A stretch of 64,000 bases of DNA, taken from assembly GCA_052145735.1 (NCBI GenBank), contig JBKQOA010000019.1:2783-66782 (forward strand), written 5' to 3'. Every line of letters starts with the position of its first letter. The stretch's first letter is position 1. Below, one piece after another: positions 17,292 through 59,175 of this stretch. Both the position numbers and the translations under genes were made by a program. This stretch comes from Limisphaerales bacterium (lineage in GTDB: Bacteria > Verrucomicrobiota > Verrucomicrobiia > Limisphaerales > UBA11358). The notes beneath the pieces were generated by a model that ran no database searches, was not told the origin of the DNA, and was given only the letters and a program-made list of their open reading frames with translations.

Positions 17292-19415
17292 ATGTCGCCG
17301 CCGGAAACCAGAACCTCTCCGCTCGCCGTGCCCGTCAACTCGCTTTGGGGTGTCGGCGGCGAACGCGCGGCACAACTCGCGCGGCTCGGCATTCACACCG
17401 TCGAGGATTTGCTCCTGCACCGGCCACGGCGATACGAGGACCGCCGCCATTTCCGCACCATCGCCGAACTGACGATGGAGGAACCGGCCACCGCACGCGG
17501 CACGATCATTGCGTCCGGCCTCAAACGGTTTCGCGGCGGCAGCAAATCGGTCTTTGAAATCATCCTCGACGACGGCACGGCGCGGCTGCATTGCCGCTGG
17601 TGGAACCTGCCGTTCATGGAAAAGTATTTCGCCATGGGCGACGAGGTTTTCGTTTACGGAAAACTGAGCGAAACCAAGCCGCGAGTGATGACGCATCCCG
17701 AAACCGAGGTCATCGAAGACGGCGAGGAGGGTTTCATCCACATCAACCGCATCGCGCCGGTGTATCCGCTCACGGAAGGGTTGCCGCAACGCTGGCTGCG
17801 CGGACTGATCTGGCGCACGCTGGAAAAATTCGAGCGGCACATTGCCGAACCGTGGGCGACACAATGGATGGGGGGCGTCACTCCGTGCGCGCCGTCGTCC
17901 GAAACCACGGAGCGGCGCGCAGAGGATTGCGCGCCCTGCCAACATTTCCCGACCCGGGCCAACGCGGTGCACATGACGCATTTCCCGGAAGAACTGACCG
18001 ACGTGGAAATCGCGCGGCAACGGCTGGCGCTGGATGAATTCATTGAATTGCAGGTCCAAATCCGGCGGCGCCGGGACAATTTCGAGGCCAAATCCCGCGC
18101 CCTGCCGTGCGGCGGCGACAATCATCTGATGAAACCTTTTCTGGCCCGGCTCGGCTTCAAACTCACCGGGGCGCAGACCCGGGTGCTCCGCGAAATCCGC
18201 GCCGACATGGGTGGGGCGCACCCGATGCGGCGCTTGTTGCAGGGGGACGTGGGGTCGGGCAAAACCGCCGTGGCCGCCTGCACGGCGTTGATGGCGCTGG
18301 AAAGCGGCTTCAACGCGGCGTTGATGGCCCCGACGGAAATTCTGGCCGAGCAACATTTTCGGAATTTTGAGAAGTGGTTTGAGCCGCTGGGAGTCAAAGT
18401 TGAACTGCAAACGGGAAGCCGGAAAACATCCGACATCGAACATCCAACTCCGATCAATCGCGAGCACGCATCGAACATCCAATCGCCCGGCGATCACGCA
18501 TCACTTTTCATCGGCACCCACGCCCTGCTCACGTCCGGATTTGATCTGCCCAAGCTCGGCTTGATTATCATTGATGAACAACACAAGTTCGGCGTGGCCC
18601 AACGGGAGCAACTCGTGCGCAAGGGCCGTTATCCCCATCTGCTGGTGATGACGGCCACGCCGATTCCGCGCACGCTCGGCCTCACGCTTTACGGCGACCT
18701 TGATGTTTCGGTGATTGACGAGCTGCCCGGTGGCCGCGGCCGGATTAAAACGTTTGTCCGCACGGCCGACAAGCTACCAAAGGTCCGGGAATTCATCCGC
18801 CAGAAACTCGCCGCCGGACGGCAGGTTTACGTGGTCTATCCCCGCATCGAGGAATCCGGCGCAAAAGGATTGAAAGCGGTGACGAAAGAATTTGAGAATC
18901 TGAAACGGTTGCTCGCGCCATTTCGCGTCGGCCTGCTACATGGACGGTTGAAGAGCCGGGAAAAAGAGGAGGCCATGGCCGCGTTTCGGGCGAACACGGT
19001 GAACGTACTGCTCGCCACGTCCCTCATCGAAGTCGGGGTGGATGTGCCGAACGCGACGGTGATGCTGGTCGAAAACGCCGAAGCTTTTGGGCTGGCGCAA
19101 TTGCACCAGTTGCGCGGGCGCATCGGACGCGGCGCGCATGAGTCGTATTGCATCCTGATTTCCGACGCGAAAACCGGGGAGGCGGACGGGCGTTTGCAGG
19201 TGCTGGAGCAGACCAGTGATGGTTTTCGCATCGCGGAGGCGGACTTGAAGTTGCGCGGACCGGGCGAACTGCTCGGCCGGGAGCAGAGCGGTCTGCCGGA
19301 GTTCCGTTTCGGCAATCTGGCGGAGGATTTGCATCTGATCCGGCGGGCGCGGGAATTGGCGGCGCAAATCACGGACGCATCCATCCCCGAAAAACGGCGC
19401 ACCATGACGCCGTAA
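17292..19415 (+). CDS. recG: ATP-dependent DNA helicase RecG
   Basis: LLQGDVGSGKT, APTEILAEQH, IIDEQHKFG, MTATPIPRTL, QLHQLRGRIGRG, DLKLRGPGE. Confidence 0.97.
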   Translation: MSPPETRTSPLAVPVNSLWGVGGERAAQLARLGIHTVEDLLLHRPRRYEDRRHFRTIAELTMEEPATARGTIIASGLKRFRGGSKSVFEIILDDGTARLHCRWWNLPFMEKYFAMGDEVFVYGKLSETKPRVMTHPETEVIEDGEEGFIHINRIAPVYPLTEGLPQRWLRGLIWRTLEKFERHIAEPWATQWMGGVTPCAPSSETTERRAEDCAPCQHFPTRANAVHMTHFPEELTDVEIARQRLALDEFIELQVQIRRRRDNFEAKSRALPCGGDNHLMKPFLARLGFKLTGAQTRVLREIRADMGGAHPMRRLLQGDVGSGKTAVAACTALMALESGFNAALMAPTEILAEQHFRNFEKWFEPLGVKVELQTGSRKTSDIEHPTPINREHASNIQSPGDHASLFIGTHALLTSGFDLPKLGLIIIDEQHKFGVAQREQLVRKGRYPHLLVMTATPIPRTLGLTLYGDLDVSVIDELPGGRGRIKTFVRTADKLPKVREFIRQKLAAGRQVYVVYPRIEESGAKGLKAVTKEFENLKRLLAPFRVGLLHGRLKSREKEEAMAAFRANTVNVLLATSLIEVGVDVPNATVMLVENAEAFGLAQLHQLRGRIGRGAHESYCILISDAKTGEADGRLQVLEQTSDGFRIAEADLKLRGPGELLGREQSGLPEFRFGNLAEDLHLIRRARELAAQITDASIPEKRRTMTP
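17866..17940. repeat. REP-like inverted doublet inside recG
   Basis: GGGGCGTCACTCCGTGCGCGCCG ... CGGCGCGCAGAGGATTGCGCGCCCTGCC; the right arm is itself a hairpin with a GCAG foot. Confidence 0.75.
18425..18487. repeat. Heptamer array (AACATCC/GACATCG) inside recG
   Basis: AACATCC GACATCG AACATCC AACTCCG ... GCATCG AACATCC AATCGCC. Confidence 0.7.
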
Positions 19416-19613
19416 TTCAACTCAAGGGGAAAGCGGTCCCTGGATGCGACCTGGAACCACCCCAATGGAGCGGTCCATGGGGGAGTTCACCGGACATGGC
19501 TGCCCTGCTGGCGGGGGCGGGGGCGCGCCGCAATTTCGACGGTGACGTCATTGGGTCACAAATTTGGCATGGTGTCCGGGGGCCCCGTGCCGGTTTTGTT
19601 TTCAGAATTAAAT

Positions 19614-19641
19614 TTGACAGCCACCGGCCGCCGTTTATCTT
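19614..19641 (+). promoter_or_regulatory. Sigma70-like promoter
   Basis: TTGACA-16 bp-TATCTT just upstream of ATG 19656. Confidence 0.6.
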
Positions 19642-19655
19642 AGTCGGACAATATT

Positions 19656-20099
19656 ATGGCTGACATTCCACAGAACATTCCGGGCGCCCCCATCGGCGCT
19701 GTGCCACCGGTTAAAAAGGAAACCGGCAAGGTCCAGCCCAAGAAGGAAACCGTCCGCATCAATTTACCACCCAAGCCATCCACGGCACCGACCATCAAGC
19801 TGCCGACATTGCCGCCCGGCGGTCCGACCGGCGCTCCCAGTGCCGTACCCCTGCCCGGCACCGCGGCAAAAACTGCGCCGGCGCCGGCAACGACTGCCGC
19901 GCCCCGGGCCACAGCCGCAGCCGCGCCCGCGGCTCAACCCCGTTCCACGCCGACGGTTCAAAGGGCGGCACCGGTCAGTGTCCCCACCATCGGCGCCCTC
20001 GATCAAATTTTGGTCATGGCCGCGGCAGTGGCCGGATTGCTCGCCATCGGCACCGTGGTTTGGATGTTGCTGATTCTCAAAAACGCAATCATCAGTTGA
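19656..20099 (+). CDS. Pro/Ala-rich protein with C-terminal TM anchor
   Basis: KKETGKVQPKKETVRINLPPKP motif, low-complexity linker, one hydrophobic C-terminal helix. Confidence 0.75.
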   Translation: MADIPQNIPGAPIGAVPPVKKETGKVQPKKETVRINLPPKPSTAPTIKLPTLPPGGPTGAPSAVPLPGTAAKTAPAPATTAAPRATAAAAPAAQPRSTPTVQRAAPVSVPTIGALDQILVMAAAVAGLLAIGTVVWMLLILKNAIIS

Positions 20100-20150
20100 C
20101 CCCGGTTTGAACTTATTTTGATTTCCGCCAAAAACCATTTCATTTGACGT

Positions 20151-20483
20151 ATGGCTTCTCCCCTGATCGTTGCGCTGACCCAGGAAAACTTCGCGCAGCT
20201 GGTTTTGCAGTCGCCGGTGCCGGTGCTCGTGGATTTCTGGGCGGAATGGTGCGGCCCGTGCAAAATGATCGCCCCGCTTCTCGACGAACTCGCCGACGAA
20301 TACGATGGCAAGGTGAAGATTGGCAAGGTGAACATTGACGAACAGCAGGCGCTGGCCGCCGAGTACGGCATTCGCGCCATTCCCACCCTGCTCCTCTTCA
20401 ACAAAGGCCAGGTTGCCGATCAGATTGTCGGCGCGCGCAGCAAACGCGATTTCAAGACCAGCCTCGACCGCGTCGCGGCCTGA
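20151..20483 (+). CDS. trxA: Thioredoxin
   Basis: [16 protein letters not shown]. Confidence 0.97.
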
Positions 20484-20499
20484 TTCCGGGGCGAGCGTT

Positions 20500-21501
20500 A
20501 TGTCGCTCATCATCACCCCCCGCCAGTTCACCCAGCGCGCCGAGTTGTATCATCAGCTCAATCAGTTCACGTCCGCCGGCATTCCCATCGTCCGCGCCCT
20601 GGAGCAAATCAAACGCAGCCCGCCCGCGGCTGCCTACGGCGAACCCTTGCAGCGCCTGCTCGCCGGCCTGGCCAGGGGCGCAACGCTGACCGAATCGTTA
20701 CAGGCTCTCGATTGGCTGCCCGAGTTTGACCTGGCCTTGATCGGAGCCGGCGAAAAAAGCGGGCGGCTCGATGCCTGTTTTCGCCTGCTCGCCGATTATT
20801 ACAACGACCGCGCGCGTATCGCGCGCCAGGTCATCGCCGATTTGATTTACCCGATCGGGCTGCTACACATGGCCATTTTCATTTTCCCCTTTGCGCAATT
20901 TTTCGCGTCCGGCAATTTGTTCGTTTACCTGGCAAAAACCTTCGGCATTCTGATTCCCCTCTATACCGTTGGAGCGCTGTTGATTTATGCCACGCAAAGC
21001 AGACACGGCGAAGACTGGCGCGCACGCATCGAGTCTTTACTGCGCCCGATCCCCATCCTGGGCACGGCGCGGCACTATCTCGCGCTGTCCCGGCTGGCTG
21101 CGGCGCTCGAAGCACTCATCAGTGCCGGGGTCAACATCTTCGAGGCCTGGGACCTGGCCGCCAACGCGAGCGGCTCGCCGGCCCTGCGACGTACGATTGC
21201 CGCATGGAAACCGCGCCTGGTCGCCGGTCAAATGCCATCCGAAGCCGTGCGCGCCTGCCCGCTGTTCCCGGAAACCTTTGCCAATCTTTATGCCAGCGGC
21301 GAGATCAGCGGCAAACTCGACGAATCGCTCCGCAACCTGAACCGGTTTTACAATGAGGATGGCACGCGCAAGCTCCACGCTTTCGCGCAATGGACACCGC
21401 GGCTCGTTTATCTGCTCGTCGCGCTGATGATCGCCTATAAAGTCGTCCAGTTCTACCTGGGTTACTTCAACCAAATCTCCACCATCACCAACGGGTTTTA
21501 A
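20500..21501 (+). CDS. Type II secretion/type IV pilus platform protein (GspF/PilC family)
   Basis: Two T2SSF repeats: AGIPI...AGEKSGRLD and AGVNI...SGEISGKLDESL. Confidence 0.88.
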   Translation: MSLIITPRQFTQRAELYHQLNQFTSAGIPIVRALEQIKRSPPAAAYGEPLQRLLAGLARGATLTESLQALDWLPEFDLALIGAGEKSGRLDACFRLLADYYNDRARIARQVIADLIYPIGLLHMAIFIFPFAQFFASGNLFVYLAKTFGILIPLYTVGALLIYATQSRHGEDWRARIESLLRPIPILGTARHYLALSRLAAALEALISAGVNIFEAWDLAANASGSPALRRTIAAWKPRLVAGQMPSEAVRACPLFPETFANLYASGEISGKLDESLRNLNRFYNEDGTRKLHAFAQWTPRLVYLLVALMIAYKVVQFYLGYFNQISTITNGF

Positions 21502-21543
21502 TTCCGCTTTGCGCACCGGTTCCTCGCAAATTAAATTTGCCGC

Positions 21544-22692: not shown

Positions 22693-22709
22693 ACGGCCGA
22701 CAGTTGCCA

Positions 22710-24860: not shown

Positions 24861-24861
24861 G

Positions 24862-27065: not shown

Positions 27066-27160
27066 CCGGTAAATGAGAACTGAAGCGGGCCAAATATGCA
27101 AGTTCAGCCGGGAACTTGAAGTGATTGAACCCCAATGGATTACGACTGTGAACCGGCCGT

Positions 27161-29223: not shown

Positions 29224-29226
29224 AAC

Positions 29227-45293: not shown

Positions 45294-46037
45294 ATGTCCG
45301 ACACGCTGGTCATCAACGAAATCTATCTGAGTTTGCAGGGCGAAAGCACGTTCGCCGGCCTGCCGTGCATTTTTGTCCGGCTCACCGCCTGCGATTTGCG
45401 CTGCTCCTACTGCGACACCGCCTATGCCTTCACCGCCGGCAAAAAAATGCCGCTGAGTGAGGTCCTGGCGAAAATCAATGAACTGGCTGCGCCATTCAGG
45501 AACCCGTCATCCGCCACTCGTCACGGGTCGCTGCCTTTGGTTGAACTGACCGGCGGCGAACCGCTGCTCCAAACAAATTCCCTGCCGTTGATGAAACAGC
45601 TTTGCGACGACGGTTTCACCGTGCTGCTCGAAACCAGCGGCGCGCACGATATTTCATCGGTTGGCCCCCGGGTTCATCGGATCATGGATTTGAAGTGTCC
45701 CGGCAGCGGCGAGGCCGGCCGCAACCGCTGGGAAAATCTCCGGCATTTGAAGAGCACCGACGAGATAAAATTCGTCATCGGCACCATCGAGGATTATGAA
45801 TGGGCCAGGCGGCAAATCGCCGAACACCGGCTGAATCTGGTATGTCCCCTGCTCTTTTCGTGGGTGCATCCGCTGGCGCCGGAGCAACAGGATAAATCGT
45901 TGAAAAAAGTCCCGGCAGGACAAACGCCGGTTTCCCGGCGTGAATTGGCGGAAAAAATCATGGCTGATGCGCTGCCGGTGCGGTTTCAGGTCCAGATGCA
46001 CAAAATCATCTGGCCGGCGGACCAACGGGGGGTTTAG
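45294..46037 (+). CDS. queE: 7-carboxy-7-deazaguanine synthase (radical SAM)
   Basis: EIYLSLQGE, CDLRCSYCDT, TGGEPL, QMHKIIW. Confidence 0.9.
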   Translation: MSDTLVINEIYLSLQGESTFAGLPCIFVRLTACDLRCSYCDTAYAFTAGKKMPLSEVLAKINELAAPFRNPSSATRHGSLPLVELTGGEPLLQTNSLPLMKQLCDDGFTVLLETSGAHDISSVGPRVHRIMDLKCPGSGEAGRNRWENLRHLKSTDEIKFVIGTIEDYEWARRQIAEHRLNLVCPLLFSWVHPLAPEQQDKSLKKVPAGQTPVSRRELAEKIMADALPVRFQVQMHKIIWPADQRGV

Positions 46038-47341
46038 TGAACAAAAACCGTCAAATGCTTGACGTGCTGCGCGATTATGAATCGCGCAACATCGTGTTCA
46101 TGGAGCCGGATGGTTCGTGGCCCATCGTCTGGGACCGCGCCCGGGACGTTTCCGTCTGGGACGCCAACGGGAAAAAATATCTGGATTTGACGGCGGCCTT
46201 CGGCGTGGCAACCGCCGGCCATGCGAACCCGCACGTCGTCAAAGCCGGCCAAAAACAGATGGCCCGGCTGTTGCATGCCATGGGCGATGTGCATCCGTCC
46301 GCGCGCAAGGCCGAACTCGCCCGCAAATTGAGCCGGATCACCTTCGAGCGCTGGAGCAACGGCAAAAAATCGGGCAAGGTCATCTTCGGTAATTCCGGCT
46401 TTGAAGCCGTTGAAGCCGCGCTCAAAACCGCCGTTCTCGCCACCGGCAGGCACGGCATCATCGCATTCAACGGCGCGTATCATGGATTGGGTTATGGCGC
46501 GCTCAACGCCACGCATCGTGAGTTCTTCCGCGGTCCCTTCCATTCCCAGCTTCGTGAGTTCGGTCACTTCGTGCAGTTTCCCTCCCGGGCCGGCGACGTT
46601 GCCAACATCGAGTGGAACATCCGCCGGCTCTTCCACCGCGAATGGATTGGCGCAATCCTCGTTGAGCCGGTGCAGGGCCGGGGAGGATGCAACGTTCCCC
46701 CCGGGGAATTTCTGCCGGGACTGCGAAAAATTTGCGACGAGCAAGGGGCGCTCCTGATTCTCGACGAAATCTACACCGGCTTTGGCCGCACGGGCAGATG
46801 GTTCGCCTGCGAACACAGCGGCGTCACGCCCGATCTCGTCTGCCTCGGCAAGGCGCTCACCGGCGGTTTCCCGCTTTCGGCCTGCGTCGGGCGGTCGGAC
46901 ATCATGAACACGGCGTGGCCCGCGTCGCGCGGCGAGGCGATTCACACCAGCACGTTCCTTGGCCATCCCGTCGGCTGCGCGATGGCCCTGGAGCAAATCA
47001 AGGAGATCGGAAAACTCGATTTGCCCAAACGCAGCGCGGAACTCGGCGAATTTCTGCTGGGCGAACTGCAAGCGAAGATTCCCCGTGCGAAATTTCAAGT
47101 CGCCGTGCGGGGTCTGGGCTTGATGGCCGGCGTGGAACTGCGTCTGGCCGACGGCAGACCGGCCGCCGCTGCGGTCATGAAGGCCATTAAAACCATGTTG
47201 CGCCGCGGATACATCCTTTTGCCCGAGGGCGAGCACGGCAACGTCATCAGCTTCACCCCGCCTCTCACCATCACCCGGGCACAACTGGTGAAAACTGTAA
47301 AAACGCTGGCCGAAGTTTTGGCCGCCGATGGACACAGATGA
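46037..47341 (+). CDS. Class III PLP-dependent aminotransferase
   Basis: SGFEAVEAALK, EPVQGRGG, DEIYTGFGRTG, GKALTGGFP. Confidence 0.92.
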   Translation: MNKNRQMLDVLRDYESRNIVFMEPDGSWPIVWDRARDVSVWDANGKKYLDLTAAFGVATAGHANPHVVKAGQKQMARLLHAMGDVHPSARKAELARKLSRITFERWSNGKKSGKVIFGNSGFEAVEAALKTAVLATGRHGIIAFNGAYHGLGYGALNATHREFFRGPFHSQLREFGHFVQFPSRAGDVANIEWNIRRLFHREWIGAILVEPVQGRGGCNVPPGEFLPGLRKICDEQGALLILDEIYTGFGRTGRWFACEHSGVTPDLVCLGKALTGGFPLSACVGRSDIMNTAWPASRGEAIHTSTFLGHPVGCAMALEQIKEIGKLDLPKRSAELGEFLLGELQAKIPRAKFQVAVRGLGLMAGVELRLADGRPAAAAVMKAIKTMLRRGYILLPEGEHGNVISFTPPLTITRAQLVKTVKTLAEVLAADGHR

Positions 47342-47445
47342 ATCAGATGACTGGATTAATGGATAGTTGGATGCTTGGATTATTGGGTGGAAACGCAACC
47401 ACCCATCCTTCATTTATCCATCAATCCATTCATCCATAAATCCAC
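47327..47445. repeat. Opposed 8-mer tandem arrays forming an imperfect inverted repeat
   Basis: GGATTAAT GGATAGTT GGATGCTT GGATTATT, then TTATCCAT CAATCCAT TCATCCAT AAATCCA. Confidence 0.8.
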
Positions 47446-47450
47446 CCCGA

Positions 47451-48338
47451 ATGAAACTTTCCGAAATGCGCAATCTGTTGACGAAACGGAACATTCAACT
47501 CACCAAATCCCTCGGCCAGAATTTTCTGCACGATGCCAATCAACTCCGCCGCATCGTTGAAGCGGCGGAATTGACCAAAGGGGACAGGGTGCTGGAAATC
47601 GGGCCGGGGCTGGGACCATTGACTGAATTGCTTTTAAAAAATGCGGGCAAAGTTCTGGCGATTGAGAAGGACGCGCGGCTAGTGGAAGTGTTGTGCGAAC
47701 GATTTGGTTTGGAGTCCCGGCTTCAGCCGGTCAGGCCCATACCAGCCTCGCCGCCTGAAGGCGGGACTCCGAACCTTGATCTGCGCCACGATGACGCGCT
47801 GGAATACTTGAAACGTGAACCGCGCGACTGGAGCGATTGGAAACTCGTGGCGAACCTGCCCTATTCCGTGGCCTCGCCGATCCTGGTGGAACTGGCCCAG
47901 TCACCCCAACGGCCGGAACGGATGGTCGCCACGCTGCAACTCGAAGTTGCCCGGCGGCTCATGGCCGGGGCCGGCGACGAGGATTATGGCGTGTTGACGC
48001 TGTTGGTGCAGCTCGATTACGAGCCGCGCGAGTGGTTCAAGATTCCGGCCGGCTGTTTCTTTCCAGCCCCGGACGTGGATTCGGCATGCGTGATTTTAAT
48101 CCGCCGGGAAGCTCCGCCTCTGCCTGAAAGCCAGCGTGAAACCTTTGTGAAAATCGTGAAACGCTCGTTTTCCCAGCGGCGGAAGATGATGGCCAAGCTG
48201 CTGCGCGAAGACTGGCCGGCGGAACAATTAACCCGGGTATTCGAAGATTTGAAGATCCCGCCGCAGGTAAGGGCGGAGAAGTTGGGTCTGGAACAATTTG
48301 TGGCGTTGACGGGAAAACTTTTCAGCATTGAATCCTGA
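47451..48338 (+). CDS. rsmA: 16S rRNA adenine dimethyltransferase KsgA
   Basis: KSLGQNFL, VLEIGPGLG, VANLPY, FFPAPDVDS, FSQRRKM. Confidence 0.96.
   Translation: MKLSEMRNLLTKRNIQLTKSLGQNFLHDANQLRRIVEAAELTKGDRVLEIGPGLGPLTELLLKNAGKVLAIEKDARLVEVLCERFGLESRLQPVRPIPASPPEGGTPNLDLRHDDALEYLKREPRDWSDWKLVANLPYSVASPILVELAQSPQRPERMVATLQLEVARRLMAGAGDEDYGVLTLLVQLDYEPREWFKIPAGCFFPAPDVDSACVILIRREAPPLPESQRETFVKIVKRSFSQRRKMMAKLLREDWPAEQLTRVFEDLKIPPQVRAEKLGLEQFVALTGKLFSIES
47706..47775. repeat. REP doublet (REPIN-like) inside rsmA
   Basis: GGTTTGGAGTC-CCGGCTTCAGCCGG-N20-CCGCCTGAAGGCGG-GACTCCGAACC. Confidence 0.88.
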
Positions 48339-50097: not shown

Positions 50098-50142
50098 GTT
50101 TCGCTCCTTTACTTGCGGCAAAAATGGGGTAGTTATTTACCC

Positions 50143-50772: not shown

Positions 50773-50805
50773 TTCTGGCCGGCATCATGCTGTCGTAAAT
50801 CCTCC

Positions 50806-52095: not shown

Positions 52096-52107
52096 ACCCG
52101 AAGCCGG

Positions 52108-52545
52108 TCACTCACCGATATCTTCGTTCCAAAGCTCCGGGCGCGCCTGGATGAAATCGCGCATGAGTTCGATGCAGGTTGGGTCCTGCAGCACCTCCAC
52201 CGTCACGCCTTGCGCACGGATGTATTCCTCCGGTCCTTGAAAAGTTTTGCTTTCTCCAACGACCACGCGCGGAATTTTATAGAGCAAAATCGCGCCGCTG
52301 CACATCGGACACGGCGAAAGCGTTGAATACAGCACACAGCGTCGATAGACCGACGCCTTGAGCCGGCCGGCATTTTCCAGGCAATTCATTTCCGCATGAT
52401 GAATCACGCTGCCGCGCTGCACCCGCTGGTTGTGGCCGCGCCCGATGATTTTGCCGTCCAGCACCAGCACCGAACCGATGGGGATGCCGCCTGCCGCCAG
52501 CCCTTTTCGGGCTTCGTCAATCGCCGCCTGGAGAAAAGCGTCCAC
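52108..52545 (-). CDS. Cytosine/nucleoside deaminase
   Basis: HAE and PCPMC zinc motifs; WNEDIGE terminus. Confidence 0.9.
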   Translation of the reverse strand: MDAFLQAAIDEARKGLAAGGIPIGSVLVLDGKIIGRGHNQRVQRGSVIHHAEMNCLENAGRLKASVYRRCVLYSTLSPCPMCSGAILLYKIPRVVVGESKTFQGPEEYIRAQGVTVEVLQDPTCIELMRDFIQARPELWNEDIGE

Positions 52546-52580
52546 GTGCGGATTGAAACACTTTTTCGGAGGAATAACAA

Positions 52581-52632
52581 GGCAGGGCCTGCGCGCTGCG
52601 CTGTCCGGACACCGCAGCGCGGCGTCCCTGCC
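52581..52632. repeat. Intergenic REP-like doublet
   Basis: GGCAGGGCCTGCGCGCTGCGCTGTCC / GGACACCGCAGCGCGGCGTCCCTGCC inverted arms. Confidence 0.8.
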
Positions 52633-52635
52633 GTT

Positions 52636-53613
52636 TTATCGGGCAAAAATCTGGCGGATCACGTCCTCAATCGGCACTTCCTGGATGTCAATGTCGCTCA
52701 CGGGCAGTTCGTCCAGCAGCGCCTTGCACGCCGGAATGACGCGGTCGCGTTTGACCTTGAGCGTGATGGCGCCGGGAGTTTTTTCGACGACTTCACCGTA
52801 ACGAGCCAGATTTTCCGCCGGGTAATCGTTCGCCTTTTCACACTGAATCGTGACGAATTTGAAATCAGCGAATCGATCCACGATTTCGCTGAGTTTGCCG
52901 TCGAAGAAGATTTTGCCGTGGTCAATGATGATGACGCGGTCGCAAAGCGCCTGGATGTCGGCCATGTAATGGCTGGTGAGCAAAATGGTGGTTTGTTGCT
53001 CCGCGTTGTGACGGCGGATGAATTCGCGGACCACCTTCTGGGAAACGACATCCAGGCCGATGGTCGGTTCGTCGAGGAACAACACCTTGGGCTGGTGCAG
53101 CAGCGAGGCGATCAACTCCATCTTCATGCGTTCGCCGAGCGAAAGCTCGCGCACGCTGATGTTGAGCTTGTCGCGGACGCTGAGCATTTCGCTCATCTCG
53201 GCGATGGTGCGCTCGAAGCGGTCGGCGGGGATGCCGTAAATTTTTGCGTTCAGTTCGAGCGATTCACGCGCGGGCAGGTCCCACCAAAGCTGGTTTTTCT
53301 GGCCGAGCACGAGCGCGAACTGGCGGCGGTAGCCGTCGGCGCGCTCCCACGGGACGTAACCGAGCACGCGGGCCGAGCCGCCGGTGGGATAAAGCAGGCC
53401 GGCGAGCATCTTGAGCGTGGTGGTCTTGCCCGCTCCGTTCGGGCCGAGAAAACCGACGAGTTCGCCGGGCTCGATCTTGAAGCTGACGTTGTTGACGGCA
53501 ACAAGTTGCTCGTACTGGCGGTGAAAAAGCCCCTTGATCGCGCCGGCAAACCCCGGCTGCTTTTTATAAGTGCGAAAGGTCTTGGTCAGACCGCTGACTT
53601 CAATGACCGGCAT
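52636..53613 (-). CDS. ABC transporter ATP-binding protein
   Basis: GPNGAGKTT, LSLGERMK, LFLDEPTIGLD. Confidence 0.94.
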   Translation of the reverse strand: MPVIEVSGLTKTFRTYKKQPGFAGAIKGLFHRQYEQLVAVNNVSFKIEPGELVGFLGPNGAGKTTTLKMLAGLLYPTGGSARVLGYVPWERADGYRRQFALVLGQKNQLWWDLPARESLELNAKIYGIPADRFERTIAEMSEMLSVRDKLNISVRELSLGERMKMELIASLLHQPKVLFLDEPTIGLDVVSQKVVREFIRRHNAEQQTTILLTSHYMADIQALCDRVIIIDHGKIFFDGKLSEIVDRFADFKFVTIQCEKANDYPAENLARYGEVVEKTPGAITLKVKRDRVIPACKALLDELPVSDIDIQEVPIEDVIRQIFAR

Positions 53614-53617
53614 TGGA

Positions 53618-53670
53618 CAAGTTTCAAGTTTCAAGTTTTTGTTCAACTGAAAACTGCGAACACTTGAAAC
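53618..53670. repeat. Opposed heptamer arrays (CAAGTTT / AAACT)
   Basis: CAAGTTT x3, then AACTGAAAACTGCGAACACTTGAAAC, filling the gap between dnaA and the ABC gene. Confidence 0.78.
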
Positions 53671-55031
53671 TACCGCATCAACTGCTTCTCGAGATAATGG
53701 ACCACCTGACGCACGTTGGCGTCCACCTCCATGCGGTCTTTGACGAGGCGGCAGGCATGCAACACCGTGCCGTGATCACGTCCACCGAAGGCTTCGCCAA
53801 TGGTGTTGAGCGAGCTTTCCGTCATCTGACGGGAGAGAAACATCGCCACCTGACGCGGAAACGCAATGTTTTCCGGCCGGCGCTTGCTGGTCATGTCCGC
53901 CAGGCGGATGTCAAAGTGCTCGGCCACCTTTTTCTGGATGACCTCGATGCTGATGGACAGGCGGCCTTCCTCGTGCAGGATTTCGCGCAGCAGCCCCTCG
54001 ACAACTTCGATGGTCAGCTTCTTGCCGGTGAGCGACGCGTAGGAAGCCACGCGGATGAGCGCGCCTTCAAGCCGGCGGACGTTGGTGCGGATGCGATTGG
54101 CCAGAAAATTCATGACATCCTCCGGCAACGTTACGCCCATGAGTTGCGCCTTCTTGTTGAGAATGGCGAGGCGCATTTCAACGTCCGGCGGCTGCAGGTC
54201 CGTCACCAGCCCCCACTCGAAGCGGGAAACGAGGCGGTGTTCGAGCCCCTGGATTTCGCTGGCCGGGCGGTCGCAGGTGAGCACGATTTGCTTGTGCGAC
54301 TCGTGCAGGGCGTTGAAGGTGTGGAAAAACTCCTCCTGGATGCGTTCCTTGCCGGCGAGAAATTGAATGTCGTCAATCAGCAACACGTCGGTCTGGCGGT
54401 ATTTCTTGCGGAATTTGACGAGCAGATTGTTCTGAATGGCGTCAATGTATTCGTTGGTGAACTTCTCGGATGAAACATAGGCCACCCGCGCGCCTTTCTT
54501 GCTGCCGGCGACGTGTTGCCCGATGGCATGAAGCAGATGGGTTTTGCCCAAGCCGACCCCGCCGTAAAGGAAAAGCGGGTTGTAGGATTTGCCGGGCGCT
54601 TGCGCCACCGCTAGGGCGGCGGCATAGGCAAAGTTGTTGTTGTTGCCCACCACGAATGATTCAAAGGTGTTTTTGGGATTGAAATGCAGTTCGCTGTTGG
54701 TCGAACGTTCATGGGCGGGTTCGGCCGCTCTGGTCGATTTGACCAGGGCGGGCTGGGGCGCGGTGAGGACCGGCGCGCCACCCGCGGCGATTTTGAATTT
54801 GATCTGCAATTCGCGACCGGCGGCGGTGGCAAAGGCGTCCTGCAGGAGACTGAGGTAATTGTCCTTGAGCCACACTCCGCAAAATTCGTTTGCCGCCTCC
54901 AGCGTGACATGGGTGCCGTCAATGGCACAGGCCCGCAGCGGCGCGAACCACATGTTGTAGGTGTCGTTATTCAGCTTGGAACGCAGGTGTTCCCGTGCGG
55001 AATTCCAAATCTTTTCAGCCGAAAGTTGCAT
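53670..55031 (-). CDS. dnaA: Chromosomal replication initiator DnaA
   Basis: YNPLFLYGGVGLGKTHL, LLIDDIQF, QEEFFHTFN, RRLEGAL, FGGRDHGTVLHA. Confidence 0.98.
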   Translation of the reverse strand: MQLSAEKIWNSAREHLRSKLNNDTYNMWFAPLRACAIDGTHVTLEAANEFCGVWLKDNYLSLLQDAFATAAGRELQIKFKIAAGGAPVLTAPQPALVKSTRAAEPAHERSTNSELHFNPKNTFESFVVGNNNNFAYAAALAVAQAPGKSYNPLFLYGGVGLGKTHLLHAIGQHVAGSKKGARVAYVSSEKFTNEYIDAIQNNLLVKFRKKYRQTDVLLIDDIQFLAGKERIQEEFFHTFNALHESHKQIVLTCDRPASEIQGLEHRLVSRFEWGLVTDLQPPDVEMRLAILNKKAQLMGVTLPEDVMNFLANRIRTNVRRLEGALIRVASYASLTGKKLTIEVVEGLLREILHEEGRLSISIEVIQKKVAEHFDIRLADMTSKRRPENIAFPRQVAMFLSRQMTESSLNTIGEAFGGRDHGTVLHACRLVKDRMEVDANVRQVVHYLEKQLMR

Positions 55032-55059
55032 TTGTACCTTATCAAAAAGCCCGTTATTT

Positions 55060-55375
55060 AAGCGGTTTATTCACCTGGCTTCCAACCCGGGGTTGGTCGT
55101 CGGTTTCCACCAATGATGCCTTGGCCACAAGCCATCGTCCGGATAAAGCAGCCGCCCGTTTGATTCGATTTGCCAAAGGCTTCATTTTATTCTTAAAACA
55201 AACTGCTTGCTTTCAACAACTTACGAACAACAAAATTCACAACACCACCGTTTGTCTGGTCAAAATGATGAAACGCCCCAAACAACTTCAATCAACGTGA
55301 GCGTTTTATGTCATTGGACCGAAAGTTTCTAGGATAACATATTAACTTTTGTTCACGAGTTATTCACAGGGGCCG
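55060..55375. promoter_or_regulatory. AT-rich dnaA upstream region with DnaA-box-like 9-mers (autoregulation or oriC candidate)
   Basis: TTATTCACA at 55360-55368, TTATTCACC at 55067-55075, plus weaker TTGTTCACG, TTGGCCACA, CCGGATAA, TAGGATAA. Confidence 0.6.
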
Positions 55376-55426
55376 GAATCAAAGTTTTGTTTGTTTTCCT
55401 TCATGTTTTGATGCGTGACACCTGAT

Positions 55427-55795
<369 letters not shown>

Positions 55796-55989
55796 TCAAA
55801 TGATTTTAACACCGGGACCCGGACTGTAAACAGGAATTTTCGCCAGCCCCATTCCGGGCCGGTTAATTGACGCAACCTCCCTGAAATCAACGGTCAGGAC
55901 GCGCCGTCTAATCAAATGGCCCGTCGTCTTTATATTATCTAATACTTTGACTATGCTGTTTGACAAAAATTAGAAGTTATGATTAATTG

Positions 55990-56165
55990 GCGCAGTGCAA
56001 GGCGGAACAGGGGGCGGTTGCACAGTGTTCTTTGATTTTTAACTGATTTCGATCTGCGTTTTGGTACAAACCCAGATTGGAGTTCTCCGTAATCCTACGT
56101 TGTACTCATTCAAAAATTCCCCGGGTCTCTCGGTCACCCTCTGGCTGTTTGACCCGGTTTTTCTT
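55990..56165 (+). ncRNA. Candidate structured small RNA
   Basis: Upstream TTGACA at 55960; three stem-loops, the last followed by a T tract; ileS has its own promoter downstream. Confidence 0.35.
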
Positions 56166-56208
56166 CTCTATTTTGACCGTTTCCAACAAATTCAGCCTTG
56201 GGCCCTCG

Positions 56209-56237
56209 TTGACACTGCATTTAGCGGCTGTTACCGT
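56209..56237 (+). promoter_or_regulatory. Sigma70-like promoter of ileS
   Basis: TTGACA-17 bp-TACCGT with extended TG, just upstream of ATG 56251. Confidence 0.6.
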
Positions 56238-56250
56238 TCGCGCTTCTAAA

Positions 56251-59175
56251 ATGGCGACGGACTATAAAAATACGCTCAACCTGCCGCAAACCGGCTTTCC
56301 CATGAAGGCCGACCTCGTCGCCCGGGAACCGGAACGGCTTGAAAAATGGGAAACGGCCGGCCTTTACTCAAAAATCCAGGCCCTGCGTGTCGGCGCGGAA
56401 AAATTTGTCCTGCACGATGGCCCGCCCTTTGCCAACGGCGATGTCCATATTGGCACCGCGCTGAACAAGATCCTCAAGGACATCATCATCAAATACAAAT
56501 CCCTGCGTGGCTTCAACGCACCCTACATCCCCGGCTGGGATTGTCACGGTCTGCCCATCGAGTTCAAGGTCTCGCAGGAAATGCGCAAGGCGGGCGACAC
56601 CAGTGCCGACGCCGCCACCATCCGCAAGGCCTGTGAAGCCTATGCCCGCAAATACATTGATATCCAGCGGACCCAGTTCAAACGCCTCGGCGTGCTGGGC
56701 GATTGGGACAATCCGTATCTCACCCTGGACAAGGAATACGAAGCCGACGAACTGCGCCTGTTTGCCGACATCGTCGAAAAAGGTTTCGTGTATCGCGGCA
56801 AAAAGCCGGTTTATTGGAGCATTCCCTGCCGCACCGCGCTGGCTGAGGCCGAGGTGGAATATCACGACCACGTCAGCCAGAGCATTTACGTGAAATTTCC
56901 GGTCGTCGGCGAGCCTGGCACGTTTGTCCTAATCTGGACGACGACACCTTGGACGCTCCCGGCCAATCTGGCTGTGGCGTACAACGACAAATTCCAATAC
57001 GTCCAGGTCGAAGTCGGCGGCGAAAAATATATTTTGTTTCGCGGGTTGCTGCCCGTGGTCGCCGAAAAATGCGGCTGGAGCGGTTTTAAGGAGCAGCCGT
57101 TCCCCGCGGAAAAACTGGCCGCCCTGCAATTTCAGCATCCGTTTTGCAGCCGCACCGGCAAGTTCCATCCGGCCGAATTTGTCACCAGCGACACCGGCAC
57201 GGGCTTCGTTCACATCGCCCCCGGCCATGGCTTGGAAGATTACGGCCTCGGCTCGAAGGTGGGGCTGCCGATTTACTCGCCGGTGGACGACGACGGCAAA
57301 TTCGCCCACACGAATGATTTGCCCGTGGACCAGCAGATGCCCGCCGGGATGGTCGGCAAATCCATCCTCGAAAAACATGGCAAGAGCGACGCGAACGAGG
57401 CCGTCTTGCACGAATTGCGGGTCCGCCACGCACTGCTCCACCAGGAAAACTATCACCACAGTTATCCGCACTGCTGGCGCAGCAAAACACCAATCATCTT
57501 CCGCGCCATGGACCAGTGGTTCATCGAAATCGACCACGTAGCCGCGCTTGTCAAAGCGCGGACTGAATCTTCCGCCGGCAGCGCCCGCGTTTTGACAAAC
57601 GCGGCTACGTTCCGTCAGGAAGCGATCGCCGAAATTGACCGCGTGAAATGGGTGCCGGACTGGGGCGTCAATCGCATCAAAAGCGCGGTGCAGACCCGCC
57701 CGGACTGGTGCATTTCCCGCCAGCGAACCTGGGGCGTGCCGATTCCCGCGTTTTACGACACCAAGGGTGAACCGATTCTTGACGCCCAAATCGTCCGCCA
57801 CGCCGCCGATTTGATTGAAAAAAACGGCTCGAACGTCTGGTTTGAAAAAACCGCCGCCGAGCTCTGGTCGCTCGTAAAACCCAAGGATTGGAAAGGCGCG
57901 GAGCCTGTCGCCAAATCCAACGACACGCTCGATGTGTGGATTGATTCGGGTTCGTCCTCGCGCTCGGTGTTGATGCGGCGGGCGGAACTTTCTCATTCCG
58001 CAATCCGCAATCCGCAATCCGCATTGGACTGGCAGGCCGACGTTTACCTCGAAGGCAGCGACCAGCATCGCGGCTGGTTCCAATCATCGTTGCTGCTGTC
58101 GCTGGCGGGCAACGGCGCCGCGCCGTTCAGGAAGGTGCTCACGCATGGATTCATGGTGGATGCCGACCGTGAAAAAATTTCCAAGAGCAAACAGGACCAG
58201 GGCATTTATGAAAAACCACAGACCGCCGAAGCATACATAAAAAAGCACGGCGCAGACATCGTCCGCCTGTGGGTGGCGTCGCAGGACTACCGCAACGACA
58301 TCGTCGTGAGCGAGGAACGCATCGCCAAGGTCGCCGAGACCTATCGCGGCATCCGCAACGCCCTGCGCTACCAGCTTTCAAACCTTTACGACTTCGATCC
58401 GGCAAAGCACGCCGTGCCCGACGACAAGCTGACCGGTCTTGACCGCTGGATTCTCGGTGAATTTTCGAAGCTGGAGCAGGAGGTCATCAAGGCCTACGAC
58501 GACTACGAATTCCATGTGGTTTATCAAAAAGTCAGCCAGTTCGTGGCTGTGGAGTTGTCCTCGATCTACCACGACGTCATCAAGGACCGGCTTTACACCG
58601 ACCCGGCCAATTCGCATCGCCGCCGCTCGACCCAGACCACGCTGCACCGGCTCGTAACCGGTCTGTGCCAGATGCTCGCACCGATCCTTGCGTTCACGGC
58701 GGATGAAGCGTGGGAATTTGTGCCGGGGAAAAAGGTGAATTCGGTTCATGAAGCGAATTTGGAAAATGTAGAATTTAATTTGACCAATTCTGAGCAAATT
58801 GCGTGGAAGACATTGTTTAGACTACGCGAAACTGTGTTGCCGAAACTTGAAGAGAAGCGTCAGCAAAAGATGATTGGCAAATCGCTAGATGTACATGTTT
58901 ACACCATCTTCGCTCCGAACGTGGCAGCACAGGCGACGATTGATATTGTTAAAAAATATCAGCATGAGTTCAAAGAATTGCTAAATATTTCCCAATTTAC
59001 ATTTAAACAAGATGTGTCAGGACAATTTAGCGGCGAAATAGATTTTAATGTTTTTCAGGCCGACGGCCAGAAATGCGAGCGCTGCTGGCATTGGGAAACG
59101 GATGTTGGCTCGAATTCCGAGCATCCAACGATTTGCAGCCGTTGCGTGGAAGCTGTGTTGCAATTCAAGGCGTAA
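56251..59175 (+). CDS. ileS: Isoleucine--tRNA ligase
   Basis: LHDGPPFANGDVHIG, PGWDCHGLPIE, WTTTPWTLP, EGSDQHRGWF, KISKS, CERCW...CSRC. Confidence 0.98.
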   Translation: MATDYKNTLNLPQTGFPMKADLVAREPERLEKWETAGLYSKIQALRVGAEKFVLHDGPPFANGDVHIGTALNKILKDIIIKYKSLRGFNAPYIPGWDCHGLPIEFKVSQEMRKAGDTSADAATIRKACEAYARKYIDIQRTQFKRLGVLGDWDNPYLTLDKEYEADELRLFADIVEKGFVYRGKKPVYWSIPCRTALAEAEVEYHDHVSQSIYVKFPVVGEPGTFVLIWTTTPWTLPANLAVAYNDKFQYVQVEVGGEKYILFRGLLPVVAEKCGWSGFKEQPFPAEKLAALQFQHPFCSRTGKFHPAEFVTSDTGTGFVHIAPGHGLEDYGLGSKVGLPIYSPVDDDGKFAHTNDLPVDQQMPAGMVGKSILEKHGKSDANEAVLHELRVRHALLHQENYHHSYPHCWRSKTPIIFRAMDQWFIEIDHVAALVKARTESSAGSARVLTNAATFRQEAIAEIDRVKWVPDWGVNRIKSAVQTRPDWCISRQRTWGVPIPAFYDTKGEPILDAQIVRHAADLIEKNGSNVWFEKTAAELWSLVKPKDWKGAEPVAKSNDTLDVWIDSGSSSRSVLMRRAELSHSAIRNPQSALDWQADVYLEGSDQHRGWFQSSLLLSLAGNGAAPFRKVLTHGFMVDADREKISKSKQDQGIYEKPQTAEAYIKKHGADIVRLWVASQDYRNDIVVSEERIAKVAETYRGIRNALRYQLSNLYDFDPAKHAVPDDKLTGLDRWILGEFSKLEQEVIKAYDDYEFHVVYQKVSQFVAVELSSIYHDVIKDRLYTDPANSHRRRSTQTTLHRLVTGLCQMLAPILAFTADEAWEFVPGKKVNSVHEANLENVEFNLTNSEQIAWKTLFRLRETVLPKLEEKRQQKMIGKSLDVHVYTIFAPNVAAQATIDIVKKYQHEFKELLNISQFTFKQDVSGQFSGEIDFNVFQADGQKCERCWHWETDVGSNSEHPTICSRCVEAVLQFKA
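57536..57610. repeat. GTAG-type REP doublet inside ileS (75 bp)
   Basis: ACGTAG-CCGCGCTTGTCAAAGCGCGG-N23-CCGCGTTTTGACAAACGCGG-CTACGT. Confidence 0.9.
57995..58025. repeat. Heptamer array (AATCCGC) inside ileS
   Basis: ATTCCGC AATCCGC AATCCGC AATCCGC ATT encoding HSAIRNPQSAL. Confidence 0.85.

What the first reader, a model, noticed from the sequence alone, without database searches (positions are those of the whole stretch)
17866..58025. Repeat elements inserted in frame into several conserved housekeeping genes
Seen: six repeat-derived segments lie in coding sequence without breaking the frame: recG 17866-17940 and 18425-18487, queE 45503-45524, rsmA 47706-47775, ileS 57536-57610 and 57995-58025. 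The same two element classes also occur between genes (13838, 47327, 52581, 53618, 59197, 60140). Known: Rickettsia palindromic elements insert into genes this way, and GTAG/GGAG-footed REP doublets are mobilised by RAYT (TnpA-REP) HUH transposases. Inference: several unrelated REP families plus short-repeat arrays have colonised the proteome and generate new loop peptides. No mobilising transposase is in this window.
Basis: partly seen in the sequence, partly recalled or inferred. Interest (0 to 1): 0.75.

Follow-up and report, generated by a model that had tools for sequence, protein, structure and literature searches.

The report
REP hairpins translated inside housekeeping genes
Small hairpin-forming mobile repeats and short runs of 7-base repeats sit in frame inside ordinary essential genes of this soil Verrucomicrobium and add floppy loops to the proteins; this is real and very common in the lineage, but the same habit has been described before in related bacteria.

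Summary
All six segments lie in frame in recG, a queE-like gene, rsmA and ileS, at loops that are shorter or different in orthologues. Three are REPIN-like hairpin doublets of multi-copy families (24-41 elements per genome). One is a 31-nt heptamer array of a 14-locus family. The recG_B and queE segments are degenerate heptamer arrays with no second copy by BLAST.

The habit is genome-wide. 119 of 414 copies of ten REP families lie inside called genes, none in a frame with a stop. 35 of 37 host ORFs are well-known enzymes such as MutS, UvrC, DnaE and AlaRS.

The same loops are hot spots. Seven different palindromes fill one two-codon site of IleS across 27 relatives.

The missing transposase exists outside the window. 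A RAYT at contig C55 is flanked by the recG repeat family, and relatives have a RAYT flanked by the rsmA family.

Most likely these are selfish REP/REPIN copies tolerated in surface loops and translated. Translation itself is untested.

Intragenic GTAG REPs are already in print (Opitutus terrae, Di Nocera 2013; Rickettsia RPEs). This scan found the same in-frame hairpins and arrays, and RAYTs embedded in PriA, in other Verrucomicrobia before. Verdict: new member of a known kind.

The parts
17283..19415 (+). recG, host gene
   Evidence: Pfam RecG_wedge, DEAD, Helicase_C and RecG_dom3_C; 5e-139 to T. maritima RecG 1gm5.
17866..17940 (.). REPIN-like doublet in frame in recG (arms 17871-17894 and 17913-17936), encoding about GGVTPCAPSSETTERRAEDCAPC
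   Evidence: I6. DNA fold -28 kcal/mol, z -3.5. The 20-nt arm occurs 40 times at up to 2 mismatches. It aligns with the REPINs that flank the RAYT on C55, but has a 24-nt shorter spacer and the GTAG/CTAC feet changed to GATGG/CTGC. 13 of 28 relatives have 10-12 residues where G000 has 35.
18425..18487 (+). Two degenerate heptamer arrays (ACATCSR units) in frame in a hypervariable RecG loop
   Evidence: Sequence read. Self-hit only by BLAST. The 16-mer 18433-18448 has at least 6 copies. It is unstructured. Relatives carry other arrays or array hairpins there.
45294..46037 (+). queE-like radical SAM gene, host
   Evidence: Pfam Radical_SAM; orthologues found in 29 of 30 relatives.
45503..45524 (+). 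Degenerate array of three heptamers (CCGTCAT CCGCCAC TCGTCAC) in frame
   Evidence: By my reading at least 10 of 29 relatives have a clean run of about four 7-nt units at this site, with 9 different units. Two relatives are 21 nt shorter.
47451..48338 (+). rsmA (ksgA), host gene
   Evidence: Pfam RrnaAD, 3.9e-46; 6e-44 to B. subtilis KsgA 6ifs.
47706..47775 (.). GGAG-footed REPIN doublet in frame in rsmA, encoding GLESRLQPVRPIPASPPEGGTPN
   Evidence: I2. -28.1 kcal/mol, z -8.1. The family has 24 elements, 9 in CDS. In the AlphaFold2 model residues 86-108 are coil with pLDDT 50-75, between helix 75-85 and strand 109-113, and the whole model has mean pLDDT 92.2.
56149..59175 (+). ileS, host gene (the open frame begins at 56077)
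   Evidence: Pfam tRNA-synt_1, Anticodon_1 and zf-FPG_IleRS.
57536..57610 (.). GTAG-footed REPIN doublet in frame in ileS. Each arm is GTAG plus an 8-bp hairpin. It encodes VAALVKARTESSAGSARVLTNAAT.
   Evidence: I3. -30.3 kcal/mol, z -6.9. The family has 41 elements, 22 in CDS. The empty site gaccacGATAAAttccgc is seen in 11 of 27 relatives. The identical insert lies in a DNA contig of an independent study (X5, 57505-57656, 0 differences).
57995..58025 (+). Heptamer array (AATCCGC, 4.4 units) in frame in ileS, encoding SAIRNPQSA
   Evidence: TRF family AATCCGC: 14 loci, 14 of 14 in called CDS. Relatives carry other units or a REP at this site.
13838..13926 (.). Intergenic short-unit arrays (GAGAAC/GACGAC type at 13838-13864; 9-nt TTCTTTGCG x3 at 13897-13926)
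   Evidence: The family ACGAGGACGACG... has 74 segments.
47340..47440 (.). Intergenic hairpin whose two arms are inverted short-unit (TGGAT-type) arrays, upstream of rsmA
   Evidence: -19.7 kcal/mol, z -4.05.
52574..52639 (.). Intergenic REP palindrome
   Evidence: I1: 33-nt arms, 82%. 10 BLAST HSPs. z -3.57.
53618..53639 (.). Heptamer array (AAACTTG family, 12 loci) at the 5' end of the minus-strand gene 52636-53646. An ATG at 53611-53613 would place the array 4 nt upstream of the start (my reading).
59221..59242 (.). Small multi-copy hairpin 46 nt after the ileS stop codon
   Evidence: 7 BLAST HSPs.
60140..60194 (.). Heptamer arrays in inverted orientation (GTCTTCA... / CTGAAAAC TTGAAAC...) at the start of the next gene

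Best explanation
The hairpin inserts are copies of REP/REPIN elements, the short GTAG-footed palindromes that RAYT (HUH, Y1) single-strand-DNA transposases mobilise. This Verrucomicrobial lineage (subdivision 3, Limisphaerales-type) carries dozens of such families.

Copies arise all over the genome. Inside genes, the only ones that survive lie in an indel-tolerant surface loop, keep the reading frame (sometimes after small trimming) and have no stop codon. They are then translated as disordered loop peptides that neither help nor harm much.

Few loops tolerate insertions, and every species has its own active families. So the same loops of IleS, RsmA and RecG are filled again and again by different elements.

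The heptamer arrays are a second class, with about four units and about 31 nt. They persist at the same loops and keep their periodicity while the unit sequence changes, most likely through slippage or conversion within the array.

Shown here: multi-copy families; indels relative to orthologues; hot spots; stop-free frames; a RAYT flanked by the recG family; a low-confidence coil in the RsmA model.

Inferred: RAYT-driven spread, translation of the inserts, near-neutrality, and the slippage mechanism for the arrays.
For: - Copy number and location: ileS family 41 elements (22 in CDS, 7 edge, 12 intergenic); recG family 39 (11/3/25); rsmA family 24 (9/1/14).
- Ten families together: 119 of 414 copies lie at least 30 nt inside called CDS, against an 86% coding fraction. 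0 of 119 lie in a frame that holds a stop, and most families use several open frames in both orientations.
- Host genes are real: 35 of 37 host ORFs have Pfam families at E<=1e-5, including UvrC, MutS, DnaE, AlaRS, LeuRS, PheT, MetH, GlmS, CarB, UvrD and MnmE.
- IleS site 1 in 27 relatives: 11 empty, 9 with palindromes, 1 mini-hairpin, 1 remnant, 3 non-palindromic inserts, 2 not parsed. Counting the window, the palindromes fall into 7 families by my reading, and every insert length is a multiple of 3.
- RsmA loop: 48 of 110 rows are at least 23 residues long, against a base length of about 10. They hold at least 7 palindromic families and arrays.
- Metagenome relatives: 9 of 20 Verrucomicrobial IleS loci are filled at site 1, while most other-phylum loci have the 20-residue base length.
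- RAYT link: C55:17986-18447 scores 83.8 bits on NF047646 and is flanked by recG-family REPINs. The recG copy aligns to them with a 24-nt spacer deletion and lost TAG foot. RAYT genes flanked on both sides by REPs occur in relatives, including the rsmA family.
- RsmA AlphaFold2 model: the insert is coil with pLDDT 50-75 in a fold with mean pLDDT 92.
- The insert is present unchanged in an independent soil DNA data set.
- Intragenic GTAG REPs of Opitutus terrae are in print (PMC3733652, passages read).
Against: - There is no RNA or protein evidence that the inserts are kept; the RNA runs did not cover this organism's insert.
- No RAYT flanked by the ileS family was found, either in G000 or in the 20 RAYT loci of 5 relatives.
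- The ileS event is not a simple insertion. 72 nt replace 6 nt, so a 71-nt element needs a further 5-nt loss to stay in frame.
- The same ileS-type REPIN sits at the same codon in G000 and in distant G006, while closer relatives hold other families. Flanking identity gives no sign of allele transfer. Random insertion plus selection does not obviously predict this. It may point to site targeting or to replacement at occupied sites.
- The arms stay 84-92% complementary inside coding sequence, which could also reflect selection on DNA or RNA structure.
- The narrow size of the heptamer arrays (second peak at 31-32 nt) is not explained by simple slippage.
- Gene calls come from my own simple caller.
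Confidence: 0.78

Rival explanations
1. The hairpins are kept because they work at the nucleic-acid level inside the genes. They might act as mRNA stability or translation-pausing elements, or as DNA sites for gyrase, IHF or RAYT. On this view the peptide is a by-product.
For: Arms are still 84-92% complementary and fold far better than shuffles. Palindromes at the RsmA site differ between relatives by paired changes in both arms (by reading). Published work ascribes such roles to extragenic REPs (PMC3733652, passages).
Against: Different, unrelated families, arrays or nothing at all occupy the same site in orthologues, so no particular structure is required there. Complementarity can equally reflect young age or insertion of related subfamilies. 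No expression data exist.
Confidence: 0.1
2. The insert peptides have been recruited for function, as new interaction or regulatory loops of the host enzymes.
For: One composite element is used in a single frame: 10 of 10 and 9 of 11 CDS copies encode GRAGSPLPA...GAHGVT. This hints at selection on the peptide or on orientation.
Against: Most families are read in several frames and both orientations. Inserts differ or are absent among close orthologues. The RsmA insert is predicted to be disordered.
Confidence: 0.05
3. The inserts are removed before the mature protein is made, by RNA excision or protein splicing, so they never reach the enzyme.
For: None was found. The idea remains only because expression could not be examined.
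Against: Every insert examined keeps the frame and lacks stops: 0 of 119 CDS copies lie in a stop frame, and all IleS site 1 inserts are multiples of 3. An excised element would not need this. No intein or intron family was seen in these genes by Pfam or Rfam.
Confidence: 0.03
4. The inserts are assembly or binning artefacts of a metagenome-assembled genome.
For: The genome is a 197-contig MAG with 5.17% contamination. Two PriA alleles are present.
Against: A contig from a different study carries the ileS insert with 0 differences. Homologous inserts occur at the same sites in many independent assemblies.
Confidence: 0.01

Closest known systems
Intragenic GTAG-tagged REPs of Opitutus terrae and other bacteria (Di Nocera et al. 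2013, BMC Genomics, PMC3733652; passages read)
   Same: Same phylum. Both have GTAG plus a 6-9-bp stem hairpin, several families per genome, singles and dimers encoding about 20-30 residues, and copies in DNA repair or replication genes and tRNA synthetases. The proposed mobiliser is a RAYT.
   Different: This is another order (Limisphaerales-type MAG). Here orthologue series show recurrent filling of the same loops by different families. Heptamer arrays share those loops. A larger share of copies is genic (29% of 414 copies). I did not see that paper's supplementary tables, which may list comparable hosts.
Rickettsia palindromic elements (RPE; Ogata et al. 2000 Science, seen only as cited in PMC10969869 and PMC3733652)
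   Same: Palindromic repeats inserted in frame in unrelated housekeeping genes, thought to be tolerated at protein surfaces.
   Different: RPEs are about 100-150 bp, belong to an alphaproteobacterial intracellular parasite, and are not sequence-related. The elements here are 50-100-bp REP doublets with GTAG feet and a RAYT partner.
REPIN-RAYT systems / REPtrons (Nunvar 2010 PMC2817692; Bertels & Rainey 2011 PMC3116915; search listing and abstracts only)
   Same: Two inverted REPs with a spacer, tens of copies per family, and a RAYT gene flanked by its own REPs (C55 in this genome).
   Different: Classical REPINs are almost wholly extragenic, with usually one RAYT per family. Here a quarter to a half of the copies are genic, and the genome holds 4 NF047646 matches over the cut-off and 2 just below it.
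Bacterial heptamer simple-sequence arrays: GGGNATC of Xanthomonas/Nostoc (Rehm 2015, PMC4692102, passages), TAACTGA of Beggiatoaceae (MacGregor 2015, PMC4679880, abstract), cyanobacterial STRR (recalled)
   Same: 7-nt units, dispersed at hundreds of loci, a preference for about four units, and many copies just upstream of start codons.
   Different: There are 176 different units, most not G-rich, so the published G-quadruplex explanation for four units does not fit. Half of the loci are inside genes and in frame.

Membership tests
REP / REPIN (RAYT-associated) | Short imperfect palindrome (20-40 nt) with a conserved GTAG-type tetranucleotide at one end | tested here: met
   The ileS arm is GTAG plus CCGCGCTT-GTCA-AAGCGCGG. 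The RAYT-flanking copies of the recG family begin GGTAGGG. The rsmA family has a GGAG foot.
REP / REPIN (RAYT-associated) | Many dispersed copies in the genome | tested here: met
   41, 39 and 24 elements for the three families. 64 families of 16-mers with at least 6 copies.
REP / REPIN (RAYT-associated) | Occurrence as inverted doublets with a spacer (REPIN) | tested here: met
   All three in-window hairpin inserts are doublets. 9 of 41 ileS-family elements are same-family doublets. The C55 REPINs are about 97 nt.
REP / REPIN (RAYT-associated) | A RAYT gene flanked by REPs of the same family (REPtron) | tested here: met
   recG family: met. The RAYT at C55:17986-18447 (83.8 bits, cut-off 80) has REPINs at 17844-17942, 18443-18540 and 18607-18705. 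rsmA family: met only in relative G017, with a 73.9-bit RAYT-like gene. ileS family: not found in G000 or in 20 RAYT loci of 5 relatives.
REP / REPIN (RAYT-associated) | Predominantly extragenic location | tested here: not met
   22 of 41, 11 of 39 and 9 of 24 elements lie inside called CDS. This departs from the name but not from the mechanism. The same was reported for O. terrae.
REP / REPIN (RAYT-associated) | RAYT binds and cleaves its REP on single-stranded DNA | not testable with these tools
   This needs biochemistry. The HUH and Tyr motifs are intact in all 11 of 11 aligned RAYTs.
Rickettsia palindromic elements (RPE) | Sequence membership in the RPE-1 to RPE-10 families of Rickettsia | not tested
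   No RPE sequences were at hand. The organism is a Verrucomicrobium (record titles of relatives). Only the way of life is shared.
Heptamer simple-sequence arrays | Head-to-tail 7-nt units, dispersed at many loci, far above other periods | tested here: met
   TRF finds 400 period-7 loci, the commonest period. Perfect tracts of at least 18 nt: 133 for period 7, against 15 (period 8) and 20 (period 9), with a second peak at 31-32 nt.
Heptamer simple-sequence arrays | Copy-number variation between strains (phase-variation type behaviour) | not tested
   No close strains were available. Orthologous arrays keep about 4 units while the unit sequence changes.

The most novel reading that the evidence does not exclude
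In this lineage REP elements are not merely tolerated in genes. They, and even their transposases, are adapted to live inside open reading frames.

Whole REPtrons are read in frame. These consist of a RAYT with intact HUH and Tyr motifs, bracketed by perfect 22-nt inverted GTAG REPs. They sit inside PriA of this genome (C153, C26) and of relatives, inside AlaRS at two sites, and inside an RM methylase and a DinG-like helicase. If the PriA-embedded RAYT is made as part of the replication-restart helicase, it would be delivered to single-stranded DNA at stalled forks. It could then be the active mobiliser of its 25-56-copy REP family.

The loop hot spots would then reflect hairpin-directed insertion or replacement at already occupied sites, not selection alone.

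I found this arrangement in no paper. It was reported several times by this scan in other genomes.
Probability: 0.3. Interest if true: 0.8.

Novelty: new member of a known kind. Interest (0 to 1): 0.5.

Why it matters
The window shows how far selfish hairpin repeats can penetrate a free-living bacterium's core proteome. Roughly 250 of about 3,400 called genes carry high-copy short repeats, among them replication, repair and translation enzymes.

The orthologue series give natural insertion-tolerance maps for IleS, RsmA, RecG and QueE. They also offer a natural experiment on how new loop peptides arise.

For annotation, these inserts explain odd low-complexity stretches and spurious 'hypothetical' ORFs in Verrucomicrobial MAGs.

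The open questions are mechanistic. Why is the same codon hit repeatedly? Why do heptamer arrays settle at about four units even when they are not G-rich? Are transposases embedded in PriA or AlaRS active? These could change how REP-RAYT systems are understood.

Tried and rejected
- **RNA evidence.** One run search and one laying of reads. The two metatranscriptome runs gave no cover over 57548-57609. Their contigs are from relatives at 90% identity or less; one carries an empty site. So nothing can be said about transcription or retention.
- **AlphaFold2 of IleS (alignment A2).** Not accepted because the tool was not ready, so the IleS inserts are not mapped on a model.
- **Pfam Y1_Tnp genome search.** It missed the C55 RAYT, and Pfam gives no hit on that protein. 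It was found only by tblastn with a relative's RAYT and by NCBIfam.
- **The palindrome next to the C65 RAYT.** It belongs to a 3-copy family unrelated to the in-gene families.
- **A 14-mer, at-least-4-copy census of the window.** It was swamped by GC-rich coding words and was dropped in favour of 16-mers with at least 6 copies. That census still includes at least two codon-like GC-rich families (45 segments).
- **Automatic sorting of families into hairpin, array and other.** It is rough, because REPIN half-arms fall under 'other'.
- **Test for allele transfer of the ileS insert between G000 and G006.** Flank identity is not raised.
- **The metagenome scan.** It reached only 2 of 64 parts of the collection and gave no close strain, so presence/absence polymorphism could not be studied.
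- **Earlier-findings look-ups by sequence and by relatives.** They returned nothing.
- **Covariation test on the RsmA-site palindromes.** Considered and not run, because independent insertion of subfamilies and in-place compensation cannot be told apart.
Full report
**What is there.** The window is G000:C19:2783-66782, from a 4.39-Mb, 197-contig assembly. Record titles of the nearest relatives name Verrucomicrobiota, Verrucomicrobia subdivision 3, Limisphaerales and Pedosphaera MAGs. Pfam confirms recG (17283-19415), a queE-like radical SAM gene (45294-46037), rsmA (47451-48338) and ileS (open frame 56077-59175; my gene caller starts it at 56149). All six segments lie inside these frames.

**Are they repeats?** Three are inverted repeats: ileS 57536-57610 (26-nt arms, 92%), rsmA 47706-47775 (31 nt, 84%) and recG 17871-17936 (24 nt, 71%). 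As single-stranded DNA they fold at -30.3, -28.1 and -28.0 kcal/mol (z -6.9, -8.1, -3.5), and 0 of 200 shuffles fold as well. Each ileS arm is GTAG plus an 8-bp hairpin, which is the classical REP unit, and the pair is a REPIN-like doublet. BLAST against the own genome gave 37, 36 and 13 HSPs for the ileS, recG and rsmA hairpins and 33 for the ileS heptamer array. recG_B and queE hit only themselves. By reading, those two are degenerate 7-nt arrays, and one 16-mer in recG_B has at least 6 genomic copies. Hence 'partly confirmed': four clear repeat copies and two decayed ones.

**Orthologues.** I fetched each gene from 30 relatives.
- At IleS site 1 the empty state is gaccac-GATAAA-ttccgc. Of 27 relatives, 11 are empty, 9 hold palindromes, 1 a 21-nt mini-hairpin, 1 a remnant and 3 a non-palindromic 30-35-residue insert; 2 could not be parsed.
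- Counting the window, I read 7 different palindrome families there. All lengths are multiples of three, and RNA-parameter fold energies are -21 to -58 kcal/mol.
- On an IleS tree the deep branches are empty. A clade of five, including the window, is filled with four different families.
- RecG site A is 35 residues in G000 and 10-12 residues in 13 of 28 relatives; others hold other palindromes or arrays.
- The RsmA loop was read in 110 rows (window, 29 and 80 loci; some genomes occur twice). 59 rows have 7-16 residues and 48 have 23-72 residues, with at least 7 palindromic families and several heptamer arrays.
- In metagenome contigs, 9 of 20 Verrucomicrobial IleS loci are filled at site 1. 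Most parsed loci of other phyla have the 20-residue base length. Site 2 behaves alike: 21-22 residues elsewhere, 26-50 here.

**Genome-wide census.** With my own codon-usage gene caller (3384 genes, 86% coding) the three families have 41, 39 and 24 elements, of which 22, 11 and 9 lie inside CDS.
- Of the 37 host ORFs outside the window, 35 have Pfam families at E<=1e-5. They include UvrC, MutS, ArgJ, AlaRS, DnaE, aconitase, PheT, LeuRS, NuoL/M, RsmB, PanC, HypF, GlmS, MetH, XerC-type integrase, RsmH, a MiaB-like enzyme, UvrD, MnmE, CarB, RibD, AroE and LpxC-FabZ.
- Over ten families, 119 of 414 copies are genic, and none lies in a frame that contains a stop. Most families are read in several frames and both orientations.
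- One composite element is read in a single frame: 10 of 10 and 9 of 11 copies.
- A k-mer census found 1116 high-copy segments in 64 families. 373 are inside CDS, in 254 genes. At least two of those families are only GC-rich codon-like words.

**The transposase.** There is none on the window's contig. A Pfam-based search found an IS200-type TnpA and a RAYT on C65 whose neighbouring palindrome has only 3 copies. More contiguous relatives hold 8, 9, 8, 2 and 1 NF047646 matches. Stand-alone RAYTs there are flanked on both sides by REPs, among them the recG family (G003) and the rsmA family (G017). tblastn with the G003 RAYT then found a 77%-identical gene in G000 at C55:17986-18447 (83.8 bits, cut-off 80; Pfam misses it). 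It is flanked by three roughly 97-nt REPINs of the recG family, and the GTAG foot of one supplies the stop codon. The recG insert aligns with these REPINs. It has a 24-nt shorter spacer and both feet mutated, which removes the TAG. So the copy was trimmed or selected to fit the frame.

**Structure and expression.** The AlphaFold2 model of RsmA (30-sequence alignment) has mean pLDDT 92.2. The insert (residues 86-108) is coil with pLDDT 50-75 between helix 75-85 and strand 109-113, the position where B. subtilis KsgA has a short loop. A DNA contig from a different study carries the ileS insert with no difference. Whether the inserts are transcribed and translated could not be tested.

**Heptamer arrays.**
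- Period 7 is the commonest tandem period: 400 loci and 176 units, about half in CDS.
- Perfect tracts of at least 18 nt number 133 for period 7 against 15 and 20 for periods 8 and 9. There is a second peak at 31-32 nt (18 tracts, 15 in CDS) and none is longer than 38 nt.
- The unit in ileS (AATCCGC) has no stop on either strand, and all 14 of 14 loci are genic. Units with a stop on one strand are mostly intergenic, often a few bases upstream of start codons or as inverted pairs forming hairpins.
- At the QueE site at least 10 of 29 relatives have about four clean units, with 9 different units. IleS site 2 shows the same pattern.
- The arrays therefore persist and stay periodic while the unit changes. 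I have no tested mechanism for this.

**What is known.** Di Nocera et al. 2013 (PMC3733652, passages) describe GTAG REPs inside genes. [quoted passage not shown] Rickettsia RPEs are the classical case (PMC10969869, passages). A preference for four heptamer units is reported for Xanthomonas and Nostoc and ascribed to G-quadruplexes (PMC4692102, passages). TAACTGA arrays upstream of start codons are reported in Beggiatoaceae (PMC4679880, abstract). This scan reported in-frame heptamer arrays and palindromes in another Verrucomicrobial genome (e1-5126021). The finding is therefore a new member of a known kind. The hot-spot series and the non-G-rich four-unit arrays are additions.

**Noticed on the way.** Two of the RAYT matches in G000 lie inside PriA (C153 and C26). 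The RAYT domain sits between the N-terminal DNA-binding part and the helicase core. It keeps the HUH and Tyr motifs and is bracketed by perfect inverted 22-nt GTAG REPs of a 25-56-copy family, all in frame.
- Related RAYTs sit in PriA of G014, G017 and G030. They also sit in AlaRS of G017, G005 and G020 (one site) and of G030 and G009 (another site), in an RM methylase (G011) and in a DinG-like helicase (G017).
- 498 protein clusters match the PriA-embedded domain at E<=1e-10, and the best 120 are all PriA of about 950-1000 residues.
- I found no paper on this. The scan had reported it in several other genomes, which I saw only after finding it here.

**Limits.** The genome is an incomplete MAG (92.7% complete, 5.2% contaminated). 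Gene calls and family assignments are my own. Counts of 'families' at a site rest on my reading of the arms. Supplementary tables of the cited papers were not read.

Noticed in passing
G000 C153:1-2662 (-) and C26:3-2615 (+); loci L034, L033: A complete REPtron is read in frame inside the replication-restart helicase PriA. It consists of a RAYT domain with intact HUH and Tyr motifs between perfect inverted 22-nt GTAG REPs. The two contigs carry alleles 86% identical in the RAYT part. These could be two strains in the bin or two paralogues.
   Followed up: partly
L340 (G017), L349 (G005), L347 (G020), L348 (G030), L350 (G009), L331 (G011), L343 (G017): Related RAYT domains are embedded in frame in alanyl-tRNA synthetase at two different sites, in an Eco57I/MmeI-type methylase and in a DinG-like helicase. 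They are flanked by REP-encoded peptides.
   Followed up: partly
window 59354-59399 (+): Rfam match to the Acido-Lenti-1 RNA motif (44.9 bits, gathering 37) in the spacer after ileS. Part of it (59352-59369) is a multi-copy word in the genome.
   Followed up: no
G000 genome-wide, e.g. C101:13522-13553, C131:1589-1613; window 53618-53639: Many intergenic heptamer arrays (AAATCGT, AAGGCTG, AAACTTG) end a few bases upstream of a start codon, where a ribosome-binding site would be. Others form inverted pairs that make long hairpins.
   Followed up: partly
G000 C170:243-566 (L162) and C139:5-289 (L163): DUF559 (Vsr-like endonuclease) genes are flanked by CTTCTCCCCGGGGAGAAGG...GAGGGCGAG-type hairpins. 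The same hairpin type fills the RsmA loop of some relatives (peptides LSPSDGER...GEG).
   Followed up: partly
window 63079-63149 (+): A tRNA gene (Rfam, 69.2 bits).
   Followed up: no
L008 (G022) IleS site 1; G000 C70:38625-38692: Composite elements in which heptamer arrays lie inside a REPIN, between its two GTAG arms. This links the two repeat classes physically.
   Followed up: no
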